24,011 nt of DNA, from UHGV virus genome UHGV-0298230; one strand, 5' to 3'. Positions 1 to 24,011 of this stretch are shown here, in pieces. A program made the translations under genes and the position numbers. The notes beneath the pieces are model-generated. The model ran no database searches, was not told the DNA's origin, and saw only the letters and a program-made list of their open reading frames with translations. This DNA is from a virus. Numbering within the stretch: the first letter of the stretch is position 1; every line of letters begins with the position of its first letter.

Positions 1-25
1 AAATAAGCTCTTAAGCCGCGCCAAT

Positions 26-46
26 GGGTAAAATAGCGGGTAAAAT
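26..46 (+). repeat. Two tandem direct copies of the 9-mer GGGTAAAAT (26-34 and 38-46, 3-bp spacer); candidate integrase arm-type binding sites
   Basis: Exact 9-mer repeated twice; the same 9-mer recurs in both orientations at 236-280 on the other side of the putative core. Confidence 0.45.
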
Positions 47-104
47 TTTTTTCACATCTAAAAAACACCATTCCAATCAATCCCCTGCCGCTTCAAGTAG
101 ATGT

Positions 105-119
105 CTGCAGGGGACACCA
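105..119 (+). other. Candidate att core: CTGCAGGGGACACCA, resembling the 3' end of a tRNA (T-stem 3' half, acceptor 3' strand, discriminator, CCA)
   Basis: Ends in ...GGGGACACCA; resembles the 3' end of tRNA-Arg argW as I recall it; no matching 5' acceptor strand 60-90 nt upstream, so it is a fragment and not a complete tRNA; lies between the two 9-mer repeat clusters and just upstream of int. Confidence 0.5.
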
Positions 120-235
120 TTTATCAGTTCGCTCCCATCCGTACCAGTCCGCAAAATCCCCTGAATATCAAGCCTTCCGTAGATTCACAGTTCGTCATGG
201 TTCGCTTCAGATCGTTGACAGCCGCACTCCATGAC

Positions 236-280
236 GGGTAAAAAGTGGATAAAATAATTTTACCCACCGGATTTTTACCC
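236..280. repeat. Cluster of the same 9-mer in both orientations: GGGTAAAAA 236-244, GGATAAAAT 247-255, ATTTTACCC 257-265 (inverted), ATTTTTACCC 271-280 (inverted); candidate arm-type sites overlapping the int translation start
   Basis: Direct reading of sequence; the repeats end 1 nt before the int ATG at 281. Confidence 0.45.
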
Positions 281-1438
281 ATGCTCACCGTTAAGCAGAT
301 TGAAGCAGCAAAGCCGAAAGAAAAACCATACCGCCTTCTCGATGGTAATGGCCTGTACCTTTATGTCCCTGTATCCGGGAAAAAGGTATGGCAGCTTCGC
401 TACAAGATTGACGGTAAGGAGAAAATCCTGACCGTCGGAAAATATCCGCTTATGACTTTGCAGGAAGCAAGGGATAAAGCATGGACTGCGAGGAAAGACA
501 TCTCGGTTGGCATCGATCCGGTAAAAGCGAAAAAGGCTTCGTCTAACAACAATTCCTTTAGCGCCATTTACAAGGAATGGTACGAGCACAAGAAGCAAGT
601 CTGGTCTGTAGGGTATGCGACTGAACTTGCAAAAATGTTTGATGACGACATTTTACCTATCATCGGCGGCCTTGAAATTCAGGATATTGAGCCGATGCAA
701 CTGCTGGAAGTAATCCGCAGATTTGAAGATCGCGGTGCAATGGAGCGAGCCAACAAAGCCCGCAGAAGATGCGGCGAGGTTTTCCGTTACGCTATTGTTA
801 CTGGTAGGGCTAAATATAACCCGGCACCTGACCTTGCTGACGCCATGAAGGGGTACCGCAAGAAGAACTTCCCGTTTCTTCCTGCAGACCAGATCCCGGC
901 ATTCAATAAAGCACTGGCAACATTTTCAGGAAGTATCGTATCGCTCATTGCCACCAAGGTTTTACGCTACACTGCCCTAAGAACGAAAGAGCTTCGTTCC
1001 ATGCTATGGAAGAACGTCGATTTTGAAAACAGAATTATCACCATCGACGCCAGTGTGATGAAAGGACGCAAAATTCATGTGGTCCCGATGTCAGACCAGG
1101 TGGTTGAACTTCTCACTACGTTAAGCTCCATCACCAAACCAGTATCAGAGTTTGTTTTTGCCGGGCGCAACGATAAGAAGAAGCCAATCTGCGAGAATGC
1201 GGTACTGCTTGTGATCAAACAAATCGGCTATGAAGGTCTGGAAAGCGGTCACGGATTCAGGCATGAATTCAGCACGATTATGAACGAGCACGAATGGCCT
1301 GCTGACGCTATTGAAGTACAACTTGCACATGCCAACGGCGGATCTGTGCGCGGGATTTACAACCATGCTCAGTATCTCGATAAACGCAGAGAAATGATGC
1401 AGTGGTGGGCGGACTGGCTTGATGAAAAGGTGGAGTGA
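281..1438 (+). CDS. intS: Tyrosine integrase, P4/IntS-type (N-terminal DUF4102-like arm-binding domain plus C-terminal catalytic domain), 385 aa
   Basis: ORF 245..1438 begins with GTG; the first ATG is at 281 (MLTVKQIEAAKPKEKPYRLLDGNGLYLYVP...), a typical P4-family integrase N-terminus. The sequence matches my recollection of E. coli CPS-53/KplE1 IntS. C-terminal HxxR...Y-type region is present. Confidence 0.9.
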   Translation: MLTVKQIEAAKPKEKPYRLLDGNGLYLYVPVSGKKVWQLRYKIDGKEKILTVGKYPLMTLQEARDKAWTARKDISVGIDPVKAKKASSNNNSFSAIYKEWYEHKKQVWSVGYATELAKMFDDDILPIIGGLEIQDIEPMQLLEVIRRFEDRGAMERANKARRRCGEVFRYAIVTGRAKYNPAPDLADAMKGYRKKNFPFLPADQIPAFNKALATFSGSIVSLIATKVLRYTALRTKELRSMLWKNVDFENRIITIDASVMKGRKIHVVPMSDQVVELLTTLSSITKPVSEFVFAGRNDKKKPICENAVLLVIKQIGYEGLESGHGFRHEFSTIMNEHEWPADAIEVQLAHANGGSVRGIYNHAQYLDKRREMMQWWADWLDEKVE

Positions 1439-1590
1439 TCCACCTTAACCACTATCGAAGAGCACAAAGCCTTGCAATCCAGCGCAACGCTTTGTGTGTC
1501 TCAGTTTTGTCTCATCAACCATAGCAAGTATCGATCGATTGAGACTTGGATGATAGACTTCATGCCTTTCAGAATTCATTGATTAAATAA

Positions 1591-1953
1591 ATGTTAAAGC
1601 TATTTGCAAAGTACACCTCGATTGGCGTGCTGAACACACTTATACACTGGGTGGTTTTTGGTGTATGTATCTATGCCGCGCATACCAATCAGGCTCTGGC
1701 AAACTTCGCAGGTTTCGTTGTGGCTGTGAGTTTTAGCTTCTTCGCGAATGCAAGATTCACATTCAAAGCATCGACTACAACGATGCGCTACATGTTATAT
1801 GTCGGGTTCATGGGAACACTGAGTGCAACTGTTGGATGGGCTGCTGATAGATGTTCACTTCCTCCAATTGTCACTCTCATCACCTTCTCAGCCATCAGTC
1901 TTGTGTGCGGTTTCGTCTATTCAAAGTTCATTGTCTTTAGGGATGCGAAATGA
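1591..1953 (+). CDS. gtrA: GtrA, bactoprenol-linked glucose flippase (120 aa, 4-TM small membrane protein)
   Basis: Size, hydrophobicity and sequence ([24 protein letters not shown]...) typical of GtrA/YfdG; stop overlaps the gtrB start (ATGA at 1950-1953). Confidence 0.9.
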
Positions 1954-2873
1954 AGATATCTCTTGTAGTTCCTGTCTTCAATGAAGAAGAAGCAATACCA
2001 ATTTTTTATAAAACGGTACGTGAATTCGAAGAGTTGAAGCCATACGAAGTGGAAATTGTTTTCATAAATGACGGCAGCAAAGACGCTACGGAGTCAATTA
2101 TTAATGCTCTGGCTGTTTCAGATCCTCTAGTTGTTCCGCTGTCATTTACACGAAACTTTGGTAAAGAACCAGCATTATTCGCAGGGTTAGACCATGCAAC
2201 AGGCGATGCTGTTATTCCTATTGATGTTGACCTGCAAGACCCGATTGAGGTTATTCCTCATCTGATTGAAAAGTGGCAAGCAGGTGCCGATATGGTGCTT
2301 GCTAAACGATCTGACCGATCAACGGATGGCAGACTGAAGAGGAAAACCGCCGAGTGGTTCTATAAGCTACATAACAAAATTAGCAACCCGCAGATCGAGG
2401 AAAACGTTGGTGATTTCCGCTTGATGTCTCGCGAGGTGGTGGAAAACATTAAGCTCATGCCAGAGCGCAACCTGTTTATGAAGGGCGTGCTGAGCTGGGT
2501 TGGCGGACGCACCGATGTCGTTGAATATGCACGAGCAGAACGAGTCGCAGGCAGCACTAAATTTAACGGATGGAAACTGTGGAACCTTGCCCTTGAGGGG
2601 ATAACCAGTTTCTCAACATTCCCGCTGCGCATGTGGACTTATATCGGATTGTTCGTTGCTGGAATTGCTTTTCTTTATGGTGCATGGATGATTTTTGACA
2701 CGCTTGTATTCGGCAATGCTGTTCGTGGATATCCATCGTTATTGGTCTCCATTCTTTTCCTTGGAGGTATTCAACTTATCGGTATCGGTGTACTTGGTGA
2801 ATATATAGGAAGAATTTATGTGGAAGTAAAATGCAGACCACGATATATTTTAAAGAAAAAGGAACAATCATGA
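1950..2873 (+). CDS. gtrB: GtrB, bactoprenol glucosyltransferase (GT2 family, 307 aa)
   Basis: N-terminal GT2 motifs ([10 protein letters not shown]..., DGSKD, D-x-D region) and two C-terminal TM helices; classic position after gtrA. Confidence 0.92.
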
Positions 2874-4141
2874 ATAGCATAAACACAAACAGAATATTTT
2901 TGTTTTTGATTATATTTGTTATATGTTTCATCATATTCTGCATGCGTCGTCCTGATATTATTTCACACCCTCAACTATGGGCAGAGGATGGACGGGTATG
3001 GCTTGGTCAGGCTTATGCATTGGGCCCTCTGAAATCTATAATTTTAGTACAGGATGGTTACTATCAGACAATTTCAAAACTTGTTGCGACATTCTCCATG
3101 CTGTTCCCATTATATCTATCACCTTTTATTTTCACTGTTATTGCATTATCGATAAGATGCGTAATAATAACCTTCATACTATCTAATAGATTCAAAAGCG
3201 TTTCTATATATCCAAGAATATTAATTTCAATCTTCATTTTAACTATGCCACACCTTGAAGAGGTGCATGCCAACGTAACCAACACTCATTGGTATATGGC
3301 AATATGGCTATTCTTGGTGCTGGTAGCAGATAGAACTGATGGATTATATTGGAAAGCACACGACTTTTTGGTGATGGTTGTGGCTGGCCTAAGTGGGCCA
3401 TTCATTGTTTTTTTAGCTCCTGTTGCCTTACTAAGAATTACAAACGGAGATATTCTAAAAACTCCTATCAATGCAGTAAAAAATGCATTCAGAAACTTAA
3501 ACTTATTCTACATAACTTTCGCAATAGTGTGTTTAATTCAGATAGCCGCGATACTTCTCTCTTCTAAAGGCTCTCGACCGACCGCGCCACTTGGTGCAGG
3601 TGTAGGGATTTTGATGGATATACTATCCTCCAGAGTATTCCTTGGCTCATTTCTTAGTGAGAGCTTATCAAGAAAGGTGTGGGATCTGCATGCTTTAAAT
3701 TACTTTGTTTCTTTATGTGGCCTATCAATTAGTGCATACGTGCTATTAAAAGGGAACTGGAAAGAAAAAGCATTAGTGATTTTTCCTTATCTTATGTTGG
3801 GATTTGCCCTTGCCAGACCAGTCATTGCAAGAGACCAGCCTCAATGGCCTCTCTTACAAATAGGACCAGGACAAAGGTATTTTGTCATACCGGCCATATT
3901 TTGGGTGTCGATACTTCTAGCATTCACTAATATGCTTCATGGGCATGTAAAGAAATTAGCATTTTGCATAGTGGCTTGCTCAGTAATTATATCTGGAATT
4001 GTTAGCTTTAAAATTGAAAAAAGACCTAACAATGGATGGATACAAGAGGCATACAAATATGAGACAGCAGAGCCAGGGAGTCGCGTGAAAATGCACACAC
4101 TACCACACTCAGGATGGTATTTAGATATAATAAAAAAATAA
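2831..4141 (+). CDS. Serotype-specific O-antigen glucosyltransferase (GtrC-type polytopic membrane protein), 436 aa; alternative start at 2870 (423 aa)
   Basis: Highly hydrophobic multi-TM protein directly after gtrB; visibly AT-rich compared with flanking genes, as is typical of type-specific gtr genes. ATG at 2870 overlaps the gtrB stop (ATGA) and has AAGGAA 6 nt upstream, so it may be the true start. Confidence 0.8.
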
Positions 4142-4142
4142 G

Positions 4143-4170
4143 TTAAGGGCGGTATTCGCCCTTAATTTTA
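4143..4170. terminator. Bidirectional rho-independent terminator between the convergent gtrC and tailspike genes
   Basis: Perfect hairpin TTAAGGGCG-gtatt-CGCCCTTAA (4143-4165), flanked by an A-run upstream and TTTTA downstream; sits between stops at 4139-4141 (+) and 4168-4170 (-). Confidence 0.75.
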
Positions 4171-6060
4171 TCTAACTCTTGTTATCATAAAGTCAAAATC
4201 TGCATCAGCCAAGTTGCCAGAGTTATCAGTGGTCACGATCCTGATGGCTGTTGTGCTTGGCTTGCCTGCATATAGCACCTTAAACCCGTTAGTTTTAGTA
4301 CTTGCTACTACCTGAAAGTCATTTACTGTTGGTCCATATAAGAAAGCGCTATCAATTGAATATACCCCTGTGGATTGTTTTGCTATTGTTAAATAAGATG
4401 GTGCATACGCAACACCTGCCGACGTTACACTTCCAGAAATCACCGATGAAGTGCTTACCGTAGATATAGACTTGCTTATGTCCTCACTAAAATGACAGGT
4501 ATCCATTCCATTTAAAGTCATATAAGCACCTCCTGAGATAAATGGTCTCGAAGCGCTAGGTATGTATCCAAAAGCTGTTTGAGTAAAAAAATGACACCCA
4601 TTAAGGTTAACAATGACACGCCCACCACCAGTGCTTAACGCTCTAATCACATATGTACAATAACCGCCTGATGAATTCCCCCTTATAAATGTGCATGAAT
4701 TGATATTTACAATAAGAGGTGAAGATGTCATGTTATTAACCTGAATGTCTGATATTCCTTGATTTGCTTCAAAATAGCAATCAGATATATTTATCACAGA
4801 CATTGGTTCTTTAGCTCTTAGGTAAACACCTCCTGTACCAGTATCTCCCTGAGTTCCATTACCCTCAAAATTGCAGTTGTTTAGATTTATCCTTGTGCCT
4901 ATCTCTCCTTCAATTCCAAATTTTGAGTTACCACTAAAAACACCATTTATTTTTAGTGCGTTAACTGTGCTGTTTGTTCCTCCGTTGATGTACATACCGT
5001 AGTTATTATATTGAGAGTTAATTCTGTTAAATTCACTGGTAAGAACTCCTGTTATTACCAAGCCTGAATTATTTCTTACGAGATACACATCCTCAACTTT
5101 TAGGTATGCAGCATTGCTTAACCTTAATCCAACTCCAGAGTTACCAGTACCATAAACAGTGAAATTAGATAACTTCATACCGCTATGCACACCCTGCCCG
5201 CCCCCTTCTGAATTACCTATATACTCAAGGAAATCATTGCCATTGGTGTTAAATGCAGTATTCGCCATTGACTCGCCAGTAAAGTCAAACCTCTTACTTT
5301 TTCTTCCCATTACAGGAAAATTTGATCCAGAGTGGTTTACTGTAACTTTTGTGGTAGAATTGTATTGCCCATCCTTAATTTCTATACCTCCAGTACCAGT
5401 ATTAAGCATATTTTGAATAGCAGGTGAAACCTCTGTTCCAGATTTCACGCCAAACCATGAAGCCATTTTTGCGCCATTATATGAACGCTTCCAGCGACGG
5501 CCTACTGCATCAATTAATACTGTTCCATCATCATCTTCTGTCGTTGTATCATCTGAATCAAGGAAGAACCATCCTTCTCCTCCATCCTGATTATGTTCTC
5601 TTCCTACGCATTTTATTTGCGTTCCAGAAACGTTAGATGTCCTTATTTGTTCATAAGTCGCCCCAACAATATAAGATTCACCATCAACTGCTGCTAATTT
5701 GTTTATGAAAGCTGGCAATGCCTGATCGGGGTCATACTTCAGCACATTAGGAAAATAGAACTGCTGCGTACCATACGCATCATAAACAGCCATAGAATGG
5801 CCTTGCACGGTAACGAATTTGGCAATCTGTCCGTTATATACAGGGTAACCAGCCGCATTAATGATGATTGGTTGCGAAACAGGAACGTGAGAACCATCTT
5901 CGTTCTCTACATAAACCTGAATCTGGTTTTCAGGATTTACCGGGTCAGTGTCAATTTTACCGATATAAATTTTGCCATTGGCAACCGCTTTAAAAGAACG
6001 CGCCATAGTGAAGAGTTGCGAAGGCATACTCACTACAACATTGGCTGTAATGTCTGTCAT
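4168..6060 (-). CDS. Tailspike protein (630 aa): conserved P22-type N-terminal head-binding domain plus parallel beta-helix receptor-binding/O-antigen-cleaving domain
   Basis: N-terminal ~113 aa ([43 protein letters not shown]...KYDPDQ) closely resembles P22 gp9 head-binding domain; remainder has beta-helix-like repeats ([33 protein letters not shown]). Confidence 0.9.
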
Positions 6061-6135
6061 TTAATTTGCTCCAGATACAAGGAATCGCCGCAGCGTGGCT
6101 ACGGTTGGTATTTGTTGCATACCGAAACGGTACGA

Positions 6136-20989: not shown

Positions 20990-22402
20990 TTACCAACCGG
21001 AGGATGAGGGAACGTATATTTCTGTTTCTTCGCGGACCAATGCCGGGCAATGCATACACATCATCAGCGCATCAGCCAGGTTAGGAGATGGAATACCGAG
21101 CTTCTGCTTCATTTCGACCTTAGTCATTAGCTCCAGCTTCCCGTTGTTATTGAATTTGCGCTGAATCTGCGTCAGTTCTGCAAACAGCTTCTCCAGCATC
21201 TTCTCGCCTATCGCTTCTTTGTCGAAACTCAGCATGTCGTCAGGATCTGCGTACTCCCCATGGACAACCGCCCGATATGTCAGATACAGCCTGTCAGCCA
21301 GTGCGTAATAGAATTGCGCTCGCTTATTGCGGAACACATCACCAATAGTGCGAACGTTGTCGCCCTGTACGACTTCATCAGCCCATGCTCCGGCCTGATA
21401 AGGCGCATCTTCATCGAATGGCGATTCGCTGCCCTTGAACATCGTGGCGGTGATTTTCTTACCGGAGAACGCTTCCGTTGTCTGTCTGCGTAGCCCTGCA
21501 CCAACACCATCACCATCCCACAAGTAGTGGTCAGCGCCGTCTTCAATCGCCAGCGAAGTAGCCCAGTCAGCACCCTCGTTGATGTCCATCAGCAGACCTT
21601 CGGCAATGCGCTTAACTACCGAACCGTGACGCGATGCGTAACCTTTAGCATCTGGCCCTGTATCTGACGGGTCATGCGCAGAGACAACCGCACCCTTCGC
21701 TTTCCATCCGAGTTTCTTGTGCGCATCGGTTGCGGCTTCAAGCCATTCTCGTTTGATGATTGCCATATCACTTGCGCTTACCGGCTCACCAAGCCAGATG
21801 TGACGATACAGTGTCGGATTTCTGCGTTTACACTCTTCCATCTCAAGACGGAGAACTTCAGGAAAGTGCGGATTGTCGGTGTAGTTCACCGTCAGCAGAC
21901 AAATATCATCGGGAGGATTTACGACGAATCGCTGATAGGTATCGTCGAGGATGTTTTTCGGGTTAAAGCTCACCCATATTTCGGAAAACGGCTTGCGGAT
22001 GGTTGGTATCAGGATATCCCATGATTCCTTCGTTACCGCTTCCGCTTCTTCCACCCAGCAGATATCAATACCTTCGAGCGATTTAATCTTCGTCGGGTTG
22101 TTTTTGATGCCGTAGAACATGAACTCAGCATTCGTTCCGAGATGACGAATCATTGAACGCTGAATTTCAAACTCAGCCGAATACCCTTCCCGCTCTATGG
22201 TGTCTTCAAGCAACCGGATTACCGAATCGCTGATACTGTTTTGCAGTTCACGAGCGCAGAGAATACGCACTGGCTGACGACGCGCCGCTTCAACAAGCAG
22301 CCTCGCAATTGCCCATGATTTACCGCTACCTCGACCGCCTTTGGCGACTTTGTAGCGATGCGCCTCAATGAACGGTTCAAAGATAGGATTAATCGAGGTC
22401 AT
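20990..22402 (-). CDS. terL: Terminase large subunit (470 aa), Walker A GGRGSGKS
   Basis: N-terminal ATPase P-loop KGGRGSGKSWA plus C-terminal nuclease region; sequence matches my recollection of Sf6 gp2. Confidence 0.95.
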   Translation of the reverse strand: MTSINPIFEPFIEAHRYKVAKGGRGSGKSWAIARLLVEAARRQPVRILCARELQNSISDSVIRLLEDTIEREGYSAEFEIQRSMIRHLGTNAEFMFYGIKNNPTKIKSLEGIDICWVEEAEAVTKESWDILIPTIRKPFSEIWVSFNPKNILDDTYQRFVVNPPDDICLLTVNYTDNPHFPEVLRLEMEECKRRNPTLYRHIWLGEPVSASDMAIIKREWLEAATDAHKKLGWKAKGAVVSAHDPSDTGPDAKGYASRHGSVVKRIAEGLLMDINEGADWATSLAIEDGADHYLWDGDGVGAGLRRQTTEAFSGKKITATMFKGSESPFDEDAPYQAGAWADEVVQGDNVRTIGDVFRNKRAQFYYALADRLYLTYRAVVHGEYADPDDMLSFDKEAIGEKMLEKLFAELTQIQRKFNNNGKLELMTKVEMKQKLGIPSPNLADALMMCMHCPALVREETEIYVPSSSGW

Positions 22403-22824
22403 TTTCCGAATAGAGTACTCATCGGTGATGTTTCAATCTGGATTGCGCCGCCGTCTTTGCCGACAAGCTCGTTAGTTACCTTGTCGCCATACTTACGGGG
22501 ATTCATTCGGGCCAGCGCCCATTTGCGGGTATCAACGCGAAGTCTCGCCTTTGCCACCTCAGCAGCATCTGGAATCGCATTGTCAGCAATTTCGAATATC
22601 TCTTCGAAAATAGAATCAGCTCGCGCCTCAGTTGCCTTCGCGTACTTGTCTCTAAATTCGTCATGCTCTGACAGCCAGCGAAATACAGTAGCCTTTGCTG
22701 GCATGCCGGGGCGCTTGCAAACCTTAACCAGACTTTCCCCGGAGGCAAGCAGCGCACAGATATCATCAGCCACCTCCGGCAGGTAATCCGAAGGGCGACC
22801 GACATTCTTTTTCTCAGTCGCCAT
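22399..22824 (-). CDS. terS: Terminase small subunit (141 aa)
   Basis: Immediately upstream of and overlapping terL (ATGA); N-terminal HTH-like region; matches my recollection of Sf6 gp1. Confidence 0.9.
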   Translation of the reverse strand: MATEKKNVGRPSDYLPEVADDICALLASGESLVKVCKRPGMPAKATVFRWLSEHDEFRDKYAKATEARADSIFEEIFEIADNAIPDAAEVAKARLRVDTRKWALARMNPRKYGDKVTNELVGKDGGAIQIETSPMSTLFGK

Positions 22825-22903
22825 ATTGATTATTTCCCTTCTGCTTGCTTATCCCATTCATCGCGGAATTTGGATGGGTTGTCGAAACCTTGAGTTGCCA
22901 TGT

Positions 22904-23146
22904 TTATGCTCCGGTAGTGAACAGGTCTAACGCTTCCTTCGATTTACGCACCGCTTCGATTGTGCGGGTCGTGATATCTGAATTAGCGCCGCCTGACTGG
23001 AAGTGAATTTTGAATAGCTCAAGCTTCAGCTCGTCAGTGCCAATGAACTGAAATGCTTCCTCTGCTGCTGCGTTCTGGTTCATGACCAGTTTGTAAATCT
23101 CTAACTGGAATTTCTGTTCTTCAGTCATGGGAATAATCTCTGCCAT
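22904..23146 (-). CDS. Hypothetical small protein (80 aa from ATG at 23146), positional equivalent of P22 orf80 upstream of the small terminase
   Basis: GGAG 6 nt upstream of the ATG at 23146; size and position. Confidence 0.5.
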   Translation of the reverse strand: MAEIIPMTEEQKFQLEIYKLVMNQNAAAEEAFQFIGTDELKLELFKIHFQSGGANSDITTRTIEAVRKSKEALDLFTTGA

Positions 23147-23440
23147 TGTTGGCTCCATTTATCCGTTAAAAGGGATATCAGTTAAGTTATCCCGTGTAGG
23201 GTATAAGCCATTGTCGAGACCACTCATTGAATGGTCTCTGCAATAACCGATGTCTTTCCATCAGTCCGCCACCACAAAGAATCTTTTTTGCCATAAGGCT
23301 GGAGGTTCATCTTTCAGTGGCTGCCAGTGTTATTTCCCCACTTACTGGCTTGGGTTGTTTCGCTGTACTGCCGTAACTGGTTGCCAAGAATAAATTCTGG
23401 TTTCATTATCAAGCCCACCCGTAGATAGGCTTTGTAATGG

Positions 23441-23728
23441 CTACTTCTTCAGAACTGATTCGATGAATTCACGTCGGGGATGACGATAGTTCAGAATATC
23501 TTCTGGCATCCTCATAAAGCGGTTGTTGCCGTCTTTGGCAGTAACAAAACAGCTGTGAACTCCGCAGACATCCGTTTTGATTGTGTCGCTATACTCAAAA
23601 AGCAACTGAGCCATCTTCTCTTGCCATTCTGGCGGCATAGCCTCCATGAATACTCGCGGCATCACGCAGAACGGCGCATGCGTAAGACCAAACCACAGTT
23701 GCAGGTCTTTACGATATTCTTCATCCAT
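23441..23728 (-). CDS. Hypothetical protein (95 aa), Cys/His-containing, between the lysis cassette and packaging genes
   Basis: ORF with a plausible SD-like AGGTAA upstream; preceded by its own upstream terminator; no family recognised. Confidence 0.5.
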   Translation of the reverse strand: MDEEYRKDLQLWFGLTHAPFCVMPRVFMEAMPPEWQEKMAQLLFEYSDTIKTDVCGVHSCFVTAKDGNNRFMRMPEDILNYRHPRREFIESVLKK

Positions 23729-23745
23729 CGTCTTTACCTTTGTTG

Positions 23746-23772
23746 CAATAAAAAGCCCCGCGAATGCGAGGC
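23746..23772 (-). terminator. Minus-strand rho-independent terminator (GCCUCGC-auuc-GCGGGGC with one G-U pair, then UUUUUAUU)
   Basis: Hairpin is strand-specific (the plus-strand version has a C-A mismatch); lies downstream of the Rz-like gene end. Confidence 0.5.
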
Positions 23773-23946
23773 TAAATCCTGGTATTTGTAATGACTGGCT
23801 CTTATCTCAACGCAGCCCCTTACCGCGCGCAAGATGCTCAATATCAAGCATCAGCAATGAGATGTTTAATCTGGATTCACTCCAGAAGTGATCACCACCC
23901 TGTCTACAGAGCCAGATGTGAAGGATGATGAGTAAAATTATCGCTA

Positions 23947-24011
23947 TCATCGAAGGCATTGCGTCCTGATGTATTCCTGAAGCGTTCTCAGTGCTGTTTG
24001 GTCGCGGATAA
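23947..24011 (-). CDS. 3' end of a gene running off the window edge, possibly Rz (i-spanin)
   Basis: Minus-strand frame open from the window edge to the stop at 23947-23949; C-terminus ...LQEYIRTQCLR resembles the lambda Rz C-terminus (...QKYINEQCR); position is consistent with a lysis cassette upstream of packaging genes. Confidence 0.35.
   Translation of the reverse strand, partial: IRDQTALRTLQEYIRTQCLR

What the first reader, a model, noticed from the sequence alone, without database searches (positions are those of the whole stretch)
23441..23772. Moron-like 95-aa gene with its own upstream terminator between lysis and packaging genes
A strand-specific terminator (23746-23772) separates the Rz-like gene end from a 95-aa Cys/His-containing ORF of unknown family, which is followed by a 280-bp gap. 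Insertions at the lysis-terminase junction are a known hotspot for accessory genes in lambdoid phages.
Basis: inference. Interest (0 to 1): 0.4.

Follow-up and report, generated by a model that had tools for sequence, protein, structure and literature searches.

The report
Swappable accessory gene after phage lysis genes
A real but uncharacterised 95-residue phage protein gene occupies a known swap-in/swap-out slot between the lysis and DNA-packaging genes of a P22-like prophage; the hairpin terminator in front of it is the conserved end of the lysis cassette, not the gene's own signal, so this is ordinary phage mosaicism.

Summary
A 95-aa ORF (23441-23728, minus strand) lies 25 nt downstream of a strand-specific intrinsic terminator (stem 23754-23773, T-tract to 23744). 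The ORF is a real gene: dN/dS is 0.03-0.15, and it has standalone ~95-aa homologues in many phages.

- It is cargo in a mosaic hotspot. About 2,596 of 5,426 E. coli genomes match at least part of this junction, but only 72 carry the ORF. Among phage records only HF4s shares it here.
- Other phages carry Rha, KilA-N, Bro-N, HNH or GIY-YIG genes at the same place.
- The terminator is the shared left junction, present whatever the cargo, and annotated as a terminator in phage epsilon34.
- I found no promoter and no downstream terminator, so this is not a classical moron. It is most likely expressed only by Q-antiterminated late read-through.

The Cys and His residues are not conserved. The protein belongs to a large family absent from Pfam (1,382 cluster representatives) with no structural relative found. 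A few relatives are fused to Lar-type zinc ribbons, so an anti-restriction or host-takeover role is a weak guess.

The "280-bp gap" is conserved, structured scaffold. It contains a 97% match to the P22 small RNA P22G.

Interest is low to moderate.

The parts
23947..24011 (-). 3' end of the Rz-like spanin gene, which runs off the window
   Evidence: Coordinates mapped from the near-identical E. coli S56 prophage annotation.
23807..23959 (-). 50-aa ORF like Sf6 gene 65, overlapping the end of Rz; function unknown
   Evidence: PHROG 11822, E 3.9e-38. Annotated as gene 65 in Sf6 and gene 67 in epsilon34. It is in the same frame as the 95-aa ORF (sequence).
23744..23773 (-). Intrinsic terminator: 8-bp stem at 23754-23773, loop ATTC, T-tract at 23744-23753. 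It forms the left junction of the cargo slot.
   Evidence: dG -13.6 kcal/mol. Conserved with and without this ORF. Annotated as a Rho-independent terminator in epsilon34.
23729..23743 (-). Translation leader with Shine-Dalgarno sequence (AAAGGTAAAGACG)
   Evidence: Sequence. A near-identical leader is kept in almost all homologues down to about 69% protein identity and in the Sasha- and Carvaje-type phages at 60-63%.
23441..23728 (-). 95-aa accessory protein gene: PHROG 3527, no Pfam family, 11.4 kDa, pI 5.9
23391..23447 (-). Conserved right-junction block beginning at the ORF's stop codon. It holds a 14-bp interrupted hairpin (dG -18.3 kcal/mol) with no T-tract.
   Evidence: 87-91% identical downstream of the unrelated cargo genes of HK620 and APC_JM3.2. 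Fold.
23231..23374 (-). Homologue of the 3' 146 nt of the P22 small non-coding RNA P22G
   Evidence: 141 of 146 nt identical to the sequence printed in PMC13397905.
23159..23440 (-). A second cargo insertion point lies at 23247/23249.
   Evidence: 89-98% identity in 207 phage records, including P22, HK620 and HK022. Fold z-score is -5.2 on the minus strand against -2.9 on the plus strand. A Gp49-family gene is inserted at 23247/23249 in other prophages.
22904..23158 (-). DUF2560 gene (hkbM / P22 ORF80 homologue)
   Evidence: Pfam PF10834, E 1.3e-43.
22399..22824 (-). Sf6-type small terminase subunit gene
   Evidence: Pfam PF20901, E 1.3e-44; PHROG 1482.

Best explanation
The locus is a small, recombinationally mobile cargo cassette (leader plus one 95-aa gene). 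It sits in the first of several accessory slots between the lysis cassette and the terminase genes of a P22-like (Lederbergvirus) prophage.

**Slot boundaries.** Two conserved hairpin-containing sequences bound the slot. On the left is the intrinsic terminator that ends the lysis cassette. On the right is a 57-nt block that starts at the stop codon. Homologous recombination in these shared sequences exchanges unrelated cargo genes between lambdoid phages.

**Expression (inferred).** The gene has no promoter of its own. It should be transcribed only as part of the late operon, when Q-type antitermination lets RNA polymerase read through the terminator. Without Q the terminator keeps it, and the virion genes downstream, silent. 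It is then translated from its own conserved SD.

**Protein function (inferred, low confidence).** The product is a soluble, mildly acidic, mostly helical single-domain protein from a very large phage family that no library names. It is dispensable and acts on its own. Its relatives are sometimes fused to Lar-type zinc ribbons and often lie in phage regions that hold DNA methylase or replication genes. My best guess is a host-takeover or anti-restriction type effector that binds a host or phage macromolecule, rather than a virion, lysis or packaging component.

**Shown:** anatomy, boundaries, patchy distribution, selection, family size, and absence of known domains or folds. **Inferred:** late-only expression and the molecular role.

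**Confidence split.** About 0.75 for the architecture and the late read-through expression, and about 0.2 for the molecular role. The single figure given (0.6) is a compromise between the two.
For: **Boundaries.** blastn against HK620 and APC_JM3.2 gives conserved flanks at 22906-23384 plus 23391-23447, and at 23748-24011.

**Same slot, different cargo.**
- Rha, KilA-N plus hkbL, GIY-YIG and HNH genes occupy the slot in other phages.
- The cargo proteins are unrelated to this ORF.

**Same gene in different phage backgrounds.**
- It occurs in prophages with Sf6-type, P22-type and lambda-type terminases.
- Of ten upstream neighbours scanned, seven are Rz-like spanins spanning at least four PHROG families.

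**Terminator.**
- Structure and stability.
- The stem is conserved while the loop varies, and one locus has a compensatory outer-pair change.
- It is annotated in epsilon34.
- The motif precedes Rha, KilA-N, Bro-N and HNH genes in IMG/VR loci.

**Transcription logic.**
- No minus-strand promoter-like site in 22300-24011.
- A Q antiterminator gene lies upstream of the lysis genes in the near-identical S56 prophage.
- HK620 has an annotated late terminator tQ.
- Read-through of terminators by Q-modified RNA polymerase is established lambda and P22 biology.

**Real gene.**
- dN/dS 0.03-0.15.
- Standalone 93-99-aa homologues in Sashavirus, Carvajevirus and Vibrio phages.

**Rarity.** 72 of 5,426 E. 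coli genomes carry the ORF; 2,596 match at least part of the junction region.

**Family.**
- 1,382 representatives at E<=1e-3.
- No Pfam, NCBIfam or PADLOC hit.

**Functional hints.**
- Lar_restr_allev is the only recurrent fused domain, in 4 of 94 long members.
- Two Lar-context prophages have DNA methylases in the same operon.
- Other members lie in replication or DNA-modification neighbourhoods.
Against: - There are no expression data for this locus.
- The promoter scan is a simple sigma-70 consensus and would miss weak or non-sigma-70 promoters.
- The hairpin and leader travel with the ORF into lysis cassettes with unrelated spanins. The terminator could therefore be counted as part of the mobile unit rather than the backbone.
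- Anti-restriction and anti-defence genes are usually early genes, whereas this one is in the late operon.
- Lar fusions are a small minority (4 of 94), and Pfam's Lar family is largely a generic zinc ribbon.
- Neighbourhoods of distant homologues are heterogeneous: directly upstream of terS in Vibrio phages, inside the head module in Sasha, and in early regions elsewhere.
Confidence: 0.6

Rival explanations
1. It is a classical moron or lysogenic-conversion gene, expressed from the repressed prophage under its own signals and benefiting the host.
For: It is present or absent between conserved flanks. The neighbouring slot in P22 holds a true moron, pid (PMC3573128). In Sasha-like phages the homologue heads a small divergently transcribed operon inside the structural module.
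Against: No promoter-like site was found, and only 25 nt lie between the terminator stem and the ATG. An upstream terminator blocks read-in. There is no downstream terminator, and the downstream hairpin lacks a T-tract. The gene has the same orientation as the late operon, unlike pid. Its G+C is not anomalous.
Confidence: 0.08
2. It is a lysis-associated accessory protein, for example a modulator of spanin or endolysin function or of lysis timing. This would explain its position right after the spanin genes.
For: In enterobacterial lambdoid loci the ORF directly follows Rz-like spanins of several unrelated families. The Sasha annotators predicted a transmembrane segment at residues 10-29. In seven IMG/VR loci the ORF is fused in frame to the membrane-anchored 50-aa upstream ORF.
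Against: Most phages with the same lysis cassette lack it. Distant homologues are not next to lysis genes. The confident AF2 model is a compact globular domain, and R25 and E29 lie within the 'hydrophobic' stretch. A separate terminator sets it apart from the lysis genes.
Confidence: 0.1
3. It is a DNA-packaging helper working with terminase, in the way HNH proteins help some cos phages.
For: It lies directly upstream of terS in Vibrio phages Seahorse and ValSw3-3 and two genes upstream of terS here. HNH endonucleases are alternative cargo in this region.
Against: It is associated with three unrelated terminase types and is absent from most phages using each type. It has no nuclease or DNA-binding motif, and its Cys and His residues are not conserved. 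Many homologues are far from any terminase gene.
Confidence: 0.07
4. It is not an intact gene but the C-terminal remnant of a longer (~230 aa) protein left behind by a deletion.
For: The PHROG 3527 match covers only profile positions 139-230 of 233. Many relatives carry N-terminal extensions of 50-400 aa.
Against: Standalone homologues of 93-99 aa with their own SD are common across genera. The same conserved leader and ATG are present. Purifying selection is strong. AF2 folds the 95 aa as a complete domain.
Confidence: 0.02

Closest known systems
Variable gene slot after the lysis genes of P22-like phages (P22 ORF201/rha, HK620 hkbK-hkbL, epsilon34 gp68 GIY-YIG)
   Same: Identical position and identical conserved flanks, including the terminator on the left and the conserved block on the right. 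All are single or paired non-essential-looking genes in the late-operon orientation.
   Different: The protein is unrelated to Rha, KilA-N, Bro-N, HNH or GIY-YIG cargo. It is much rarer: one cultured phage, HF4s.
P22 pid moron (Cenens et al. 2013, PMC3573128)
   Same: It is a small ORFan accessory gene in the same lysis-to-terminase interval of a P22-like phage, at a site where relatives have no insert or another insert.
   Different: pid lies in a different slot, between orf25 and orf80, next to the DUF2560 gene. It is transcribed divergently from its own promoter and has its own 3' terminator. The gene here is co-oriented with the late operon and has neither signal.
Morons of lambdoid phages as defined for HK97/HK022 (Juhala et al. 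2000; recalled from my own knowledge)
   Same: Extra DNA between genes that are adjacent in related phages.
   Different: The defining promoter-gene-terminator unit and the atypical base composition are absent.
Lar (Rac prophage) restriction-alleviation family, Pfam PF14354
   Same: A few relatives of the 95-aa domain carry an N-terminal Lar-type zinc ribbon. Those prophage operons also encode DNA methylases.
   Different: The window protein has no Lar domain and no conserved Cys. No functional link has been shown.
P22G small non-coding RNA of phage P22 (PMC13397905) - relates to the 'gap', not the ORF
   Same: 97% identity over 146 nt, same strand as the late operon, same position downstream of the cargo slot.
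   Different: The 5' 58 nt of P22G, which overlap the 3' end of ORF201, have no counterpart here because the cargo differs. Expression in this phage is untested, and the function is unknown even in P22.

Membership tests
Moron (autonomous promoter-gene-terminator insert) | Present or absent between flanks that are contiguous or differently filled in relatives | tested here: met
   Flanks are shared with HK620 and APC_JM3.2 and the cargo differs. 72 E. coli genomes carry the ORF, against 2,596 that match at least part of the junction region.
Moron (autonomous promoter-gene-terminator insert) | Own promoter immediately upstream | tested here: not met
   No minus-strand sigma-70-like site in 22300-24011. 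Only 25 nt lie between the terminator stem and the ATG (15 nt after the T-run). The consensus scan has limited sensitivity.
Moron (autonomous promoter-gene-terminator insert) | Own terminator immediately downstream | tested here: not met
   The only terminator-like site is upstream. The downstream hairpin has no T-tract.
Moron (autonomous promoter-gene-terminator insert) | Base composition different from surrounding genes | tested here: not met
   ORF G+C is 46.9%, against 44-46% for its neighbours and 46.2% for the window.
Moron (autonomous promoter-gene-terminator insert) | Expressed from the repressed prophage | not testable with these tools
   This needs lysogen RNA-seq or a reporter.
Intrinsic (Rho-independent) terminator | G+C-rich stem, short loop, 3' U-tract on the transcribed strand | tested here: met
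   8-bp stem (6 G-C), 4-nt loop, TTTTATTG tail, minus strand only. dG is -13.6 kcal/mol.
Intrinsic (Rho-independent) terminator | Structure conserved in relatives | tested here: met
   The stem is constant while the loop varies (ATTC, ATTT, AGTA, ACTC, AATA, ACTA, ATTA, AAAC, ATCT). L050 has a G-C to U-A outer-pair change, and L054 has a re-shaped hairpin.
Intrinsic (Rho-independent) terminator | Terminates transcription in vivo or in vitro, and is overridden by Q | not testable with these tools
   It is annotated as a terminator in epsilon34, but I found no experimental evidence.
PHROG 3527 (phage protein family of unknown function) | Significant match to the family profile | tested here: met
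   E 1.6e-54, covering residues 1-95 against profile positions 139-230 of 233.
Lar restriction-alleviation family (PF14354) | Lar-type zinc-ribbon domain | tested here: not met
   No Pfam hit for the window protein. Cys residues are not conserved. The domain is present only as an N-terminal fusion in 4 of 94 long relatives.
Rha / KilA-N / Bro-N regulators (usual cargo of this slot) | Phage_pRha, KilA-N or Bro-N domain | tested here: not met
   No Pfam hit. BLASTP against HK620 hkbL and APC_JM3.2 Rha was not significant.
Zinc-finger or metal-binding small protein (implied by 'Cys/His-containing') | Conserved Cys/His ligand set | tested here: not met
   The invariant or near-invariant residues are R25, Y81, L9, W12, F13, L15, P24, M28, M31, P32, W35, Q36, M39, L42, L43, P75, R82 and P84. 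None is Cys or His.
P22G sncRNA (for the gap element) | Sequence homology on the same strand and in the same position | tested here: met
   141 of 146 nt identical, minus strand, 23374..23231.
P22G sncRNA (for the gap element) | Accumulates as a discrete small RNA | not testable with these tools
   Reported only for P22-infected Salmonella (PMC13397905).

The most novel reading that the evidence does not exclude
The 95-aa protein is the minimal form of a very widespread phage domain that no library names. The family has at least 1,382 clusters at 50% identity across Enterobacteria, Vibrio, Pseudomonas, Stenotrophomonas, Acinetobacter and Caulobacter phages, and the model has no detectable relative among solved structures. 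In this reading the domain is a new kind of anti-restriction or host-takeover effector that in some phages is coupled to a Lar-type zinc ribbon or an HExxH module.
Probability: 0.15. Interest if true: 0.6.

Novelty: new member of a known kind. Interest (0 to 1): 0.3.

Why it matters
As it stands this is a textbook case of lambdoid mosaicism: a small unknown gene in a known hotspot. Three points have some value.

1. The cargo slot is bounded by two conserved hairpins, one of them the lysis-cassette terminator. That gives a concrete picture of how unrelated genes are exchanged here, and it shows that an upstream terminator should not be read as a gene's own signal.
2. The protein belongs to a large phage domain family that is not in Pfam and has no structural relative. 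A cultured phage (HF4s) and many inducible prophages carry it, so it is a cheap candidate for anti-defence or host-takeover screens.
3. The supposed empty gap carries a conserved structured element matching the recently reported P22G small RNA. This extends that RNA to E. coli P22-like phages and to HK022-like siphoviruses.

Tried and rejected
- **Domain libraries.** Pfam, NCBIfam and PADLOC scans of the ORF gave nothing. PHROGs gave only families of unknown function.
- **Solved structures by sequence.** Profile searches with the shallow and the deep alignment found nothing credible.
- **First structure model.** The AF2 model from 33 close homologues was poor (pLDDT 55) and was not used.
- **N-terminal extensions.** Pfam scans of about 114 longer family members found only Lar_restr_allev (4 members) plus scattered weak hits.
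- **Literature.** I searched the supplements of two phage accessory-gene screening papers for family peptide motifs and found no occurrence. The papers on the E. coli HS phages and on BTP1 transcriptomics gave nothing specific for this locus.
- **Truncated-gene idea** (from the PHROG profile coordinates): rejected.
- **Zinc-binding idea:** rejected.
- **HF4s annotation.** Its 114-aa CDS starts at an ATA codon and runs through the terminator. The DNA is identical to the window there, so I treat it as an over-extended call.
- **Rfam** scan of 22800-24011 at E<=1: no family.
- **Covariation** in the gap element: the homologues are too similar (91-99%) to be informative, with 1 compensatory pair of 81.
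- **Simple greedy gene caller.** My script was confounded by the antisense ORF and was used only for neighbour picking.

Full report
**1. What is in the sequence**

All genes at this end of the window are on the minus strand. In order of transcription they are:
- the last 65 nt of an Rz-like spanin gene (stop at about 23947);
- an overlapping 50-aa ORF (23807-23959);
- a hairpin with a T-tract (23744-23773);
- a 95-aa ORF (23441-23728);
- 282 bp without a credible ORF;
- a DUF2560 gene (22904-23158);
- an Sf6-type small terminase gene (22399-22824);
- the large terminase gene (20990-22402).

The region is 96-99% identical to P22-like phages (Lederbergvirus) and to E. coli prophages. In the near-identical S56 prophage the upstream order is Q antiterminator, holin, endolysin, Rz. 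This is therefore the late operon.

**2. Checking the observation**

The terminator scan finds exactly one site in 22300-24011. It is on the minus strand: stem 23773..23754 (8 pairs, 6 G-C), loop ATTC, tail TTTTATTGCA. The hairpin has a dG of -13.6 kcal/mol and dominates the local fold.

One such site is no more than shuffled sequence gives (mean 1.6). Its significance comes from conservation instead:
- Across dozens of loci the two stem arms stay constant while the 4-nt loop takes at least nine forms.
- One locus changes the outer pair on both sides, and another has a re-shaped but intact hairpin.
- The epsilon34 GenBank record annotates the same element as a Rho-independent terminator.

The ORF is a real gene. 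dN/dS against homologues of 82-95% protein identity is 0.03-0.15, and 0.13-0.23 at 55-61% identity. A conserved leader AAAGGTAAAGACG precedes the ATG.

Two details need correction:
- The ORF immediately upstream of the terminator is not Rz or Rz1. It is a homologue of Sf6 gene 65 (PHROG 11822, function unknown). In Sf6 and epsilon34, Rz1 is embedded inside Rz.
- The three Cys and three His residues are not conserved in the family. 'Cys/His-containing' therefore carries no functional meaning.

**3. Whose terminator is it, and what exactly is swapped**

Alignment with HK620 and APC_JM3.2 shows conserved sequence at 22906-23384, at 23391-23447, and from 23748 onwards. Only about 23448-23747 differs. 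That interval is the leader plus the ORF.

The hairpin and T-tract belong to the flank shared with phages that carry quite different genes here:
- KilA-N plus hkbL in HK620;
- Rha in APC_JM3.2 and others;
- GIY-YIG in epsilon34 and g341c;
- HNH elsewhere.

These cargo proteins are unrelated to the 95-aa protein.

In a sample of IMG/VR contigs that carry the exact hairpin motif, the next gene is variable. It is Rha (with or without ANT or ORF11CD3), KilA-N, Bro-N, HNH, or, in other contexts, a tail sheath gene. Only two loci in the sample had the 95-aa ORF.

The converse also holds. Homologues of the ORF down to about 69% identity nearly always have this hairpin 25-28 nt upstream, even where the upstream lysis genes are unrelated. 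Of ten upstream neighbours scanned, seven are Rz-like spanins from at least four PHROG families.

The simplest reading is that the hairpin is the shared left junction of a cargo slot. It is neither purely backbone nor the gene's private signal.

The right junction is a 57-nt block that begins at the stop codon. It contains a 14-bp interrupted hairpin (dG -18.3 kcal/mol) without a T-tract. The Sf6 record carries 'boundary sequence' features of this kind.

**4. Distribution**

- Among 50,697 phage records only HF4s has the gene at this place, at 98.9% identity.
- 72 of 5,426 complete E. coli genomes carry it. By contrast, 2,596 match at least part of a 672-bp junction query, which itself includes the ORF.
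- The identical protein (WP_000343115.1) occurs in prophages with an Sf6-type terminase (S56) and a P22-type terminase (ETEC1739). A 95% DNA-identical copy of the gene (WP_000343118.1) sits in a lambda-type prophage of O104:H4.
- The exact sequence is on 666 contigs in public data, always labelled hypothetical.
- G+C is unremarkable.

**5. Is it a moron?**

Not in the strict sense.
- No sigma-70-like promoter was found on the minus strand. Only 25 nt separate the terminator stem from the ATG, of which 15 follow the T-run.
- Any transcript that started further upstream without antitermination would stop at the hairpin.
- No terminator follows the ORF.

The gene is co-oriented with the late operon. 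From established lambda and P22 biology, Q-modified polymerase reads through terminators across the whole late operon, so expression should be late and Q-dependent. This is an inference; I have no expression data.

P22's genuine moron pid offers a contrast. It lies in a neighbouring slot of the same interval, is transcribed divergently, and has its own terminator (PMC3573128).

**6. The protein**

Close homologues are 94-105 aa, all unnamed, and lack Pfam domains. A profile search of 1.84 billion representatives finds 1,382 at E<=1e-3. These are either standalone proteins or carry the domain at the C-terminus of proteins of 100-490 aa.

- The nearly invariant residues are R25, Y81, R82, P84, W12, F13, P24, W35, Q36 and several hydrophobic positions.
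- A deep-alignment AF2 model is confident (pLDDT 89.7). It shows a compact, mainly helical domain with a short beta-hairpin.
- The only recurrent fused domain is the Lar-type zinc ribbon (PF14354), in 4 of 94 long members. Two members carry an HExxH motif.

Genomic neighbourhoods of distant members vary:
- early-left operons with DNA methylases in two prophages;
- between a RepB-type primase and a VapE-like helicase;
- a glycosyltransferase/methyltransferase/Tad6 cluster;
- immediately before terS in Vibrio phages;
- a divergent small operon in the head module of Sasha-like phages.

No partner gene is conserved, so the domain probably works alone.

I commit, at low confidence (about 0.2), to a host-takeover or anti-restriction type accessory function. 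The alternatives are a lysis-associated role, a packaging helper, a prophage-expressed moron, or a gene remnant. Each has the specific evidence against it listed under the rival explanations.

**7. The 'gap'**

The 282 bp are not spacer.
- They are 89-98% identical in 207 phage records. These include P22 (directly downstream of ORF201), HK620, Sf6, and siphoviral lambdoids such as HK022 and mEp234.
- The minus strand folds far better than shuffles (z = -5.2, against -2.9 for the plus strand).
- The 35-aa ORF inside the gap is broken by A-run indels in relatives.
- Positions 23374..23231 are 97% identical to the 3' 146 nt of P22G. This is a small RNA detected in P22-infected Salmonella, with no known function (PMC13397905).

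Other phages insert a Gp49-family gene at 23247/23249. P22 inserts pid closer to the DUF2560 gene. The lysis-to-terminase interval is therefore a conserved, structured scaffold interrupted by at least three cargo slots. The finding concerns the first of them.

**8. Verdict**

- Observation: confirmed.
- Interpretation: partly supported. It is hotspot cargo of unknown family. It does not have 'its own' terminator and is not a moron by definition.
- Novelty: a new member of a known kind.
- Interest: low to moderate (0.3). The family's size and its lack of any annotation or structural relative are the only unusual aspects.

Noticed in passing
window 23231-23374 (minus strand), within 23159-23440: The 'gap' contains a 97% match to the 3' 146 nt of the P22 small RNA P22G (PMC13397905). 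The whole 282 bp is conserved in P22-like podoviruses and in HK022/mEp-type siphoviruses. It folds with z = -5.2 on the late-operon strand, and no Rfam family matches.
   Followed up: partly
window 23247/23249, and about 23160-23188: Two more cargo insertion points lie in the same interval. A Gp49-family gene (PHROG 322) is inserted at 23247/23249 in ETEC1739, Sf6, Huey and several IMG/VR prophages. P22's homology ends at about 23188, and its pid moron lies in the stretch from there to the DUF2560 gene.
   Followed up: partly
window 23807-23959 and 23441-23728; loci L016, L017, L019, L026, L027, L028, L030: The 50-aa gene-65-like ORF and the 95-aa ORF share a reading frame. In seven IMG/VR loci the TGA of the upstream ORF is TTA. 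This gives one 172-aa ORF that runs through the terminator hairpin and would add an N-terminal membrane anchor to the domain.
   Followed up: partly
L001 (phage HF4s, MT833387.1) 728-1072: HF4s annotates the homologue as 114 aa, starting at an ATA codon upstream of the terminator. The DNA is identical to the window there, so this looks like an over-extended gene call.
   Followed up: yes
window 23729-23743 and homologous loci: The leader AAAGGTAAAG(A/G)CG before the ATG is kept almost unchanged even in homologues with only 60-63% protein identity (Sasha, Carvaje). It is thus more conserved than the coding sequence.
   Followed up: no
window 23159-23227 (minus strand): A 22-codon ORF (ATG at 23227) ends with TAA at 23161-23159, directly abutting the ATG at 23158 that opens the longest form of the DUF2560 ORF. 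This is a possible coupled leader peptide, or a chance arrangement.
   Followed up: no
window 23480-23791 (plus strand) and 23381-23409 (plus strand): A 103-aa antisense ORF overlaps the gene, and a weak promoter-like site points into it. The ORF has no PHROG match, and the promoter count is below the shuffle expectation, so both are probably chance.
   Followed up: partly
proteins P0072, P0110, P0049 (relatives, not in the window): Some family members carry an N-terminal HEFGH (HExxH, metalloprotease-like) region, and one has two tandem copies of the domain.
   Followed up: no
window 1-6100: ORF sizes and order suggest an integrase, a gtrABC-like O-antigen modification cluster and a tailspike at the other end of the window. 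That would fit a complete P22-like/Sf6-like prophage, but no tool was run on these ORFs.
   Followed up: no
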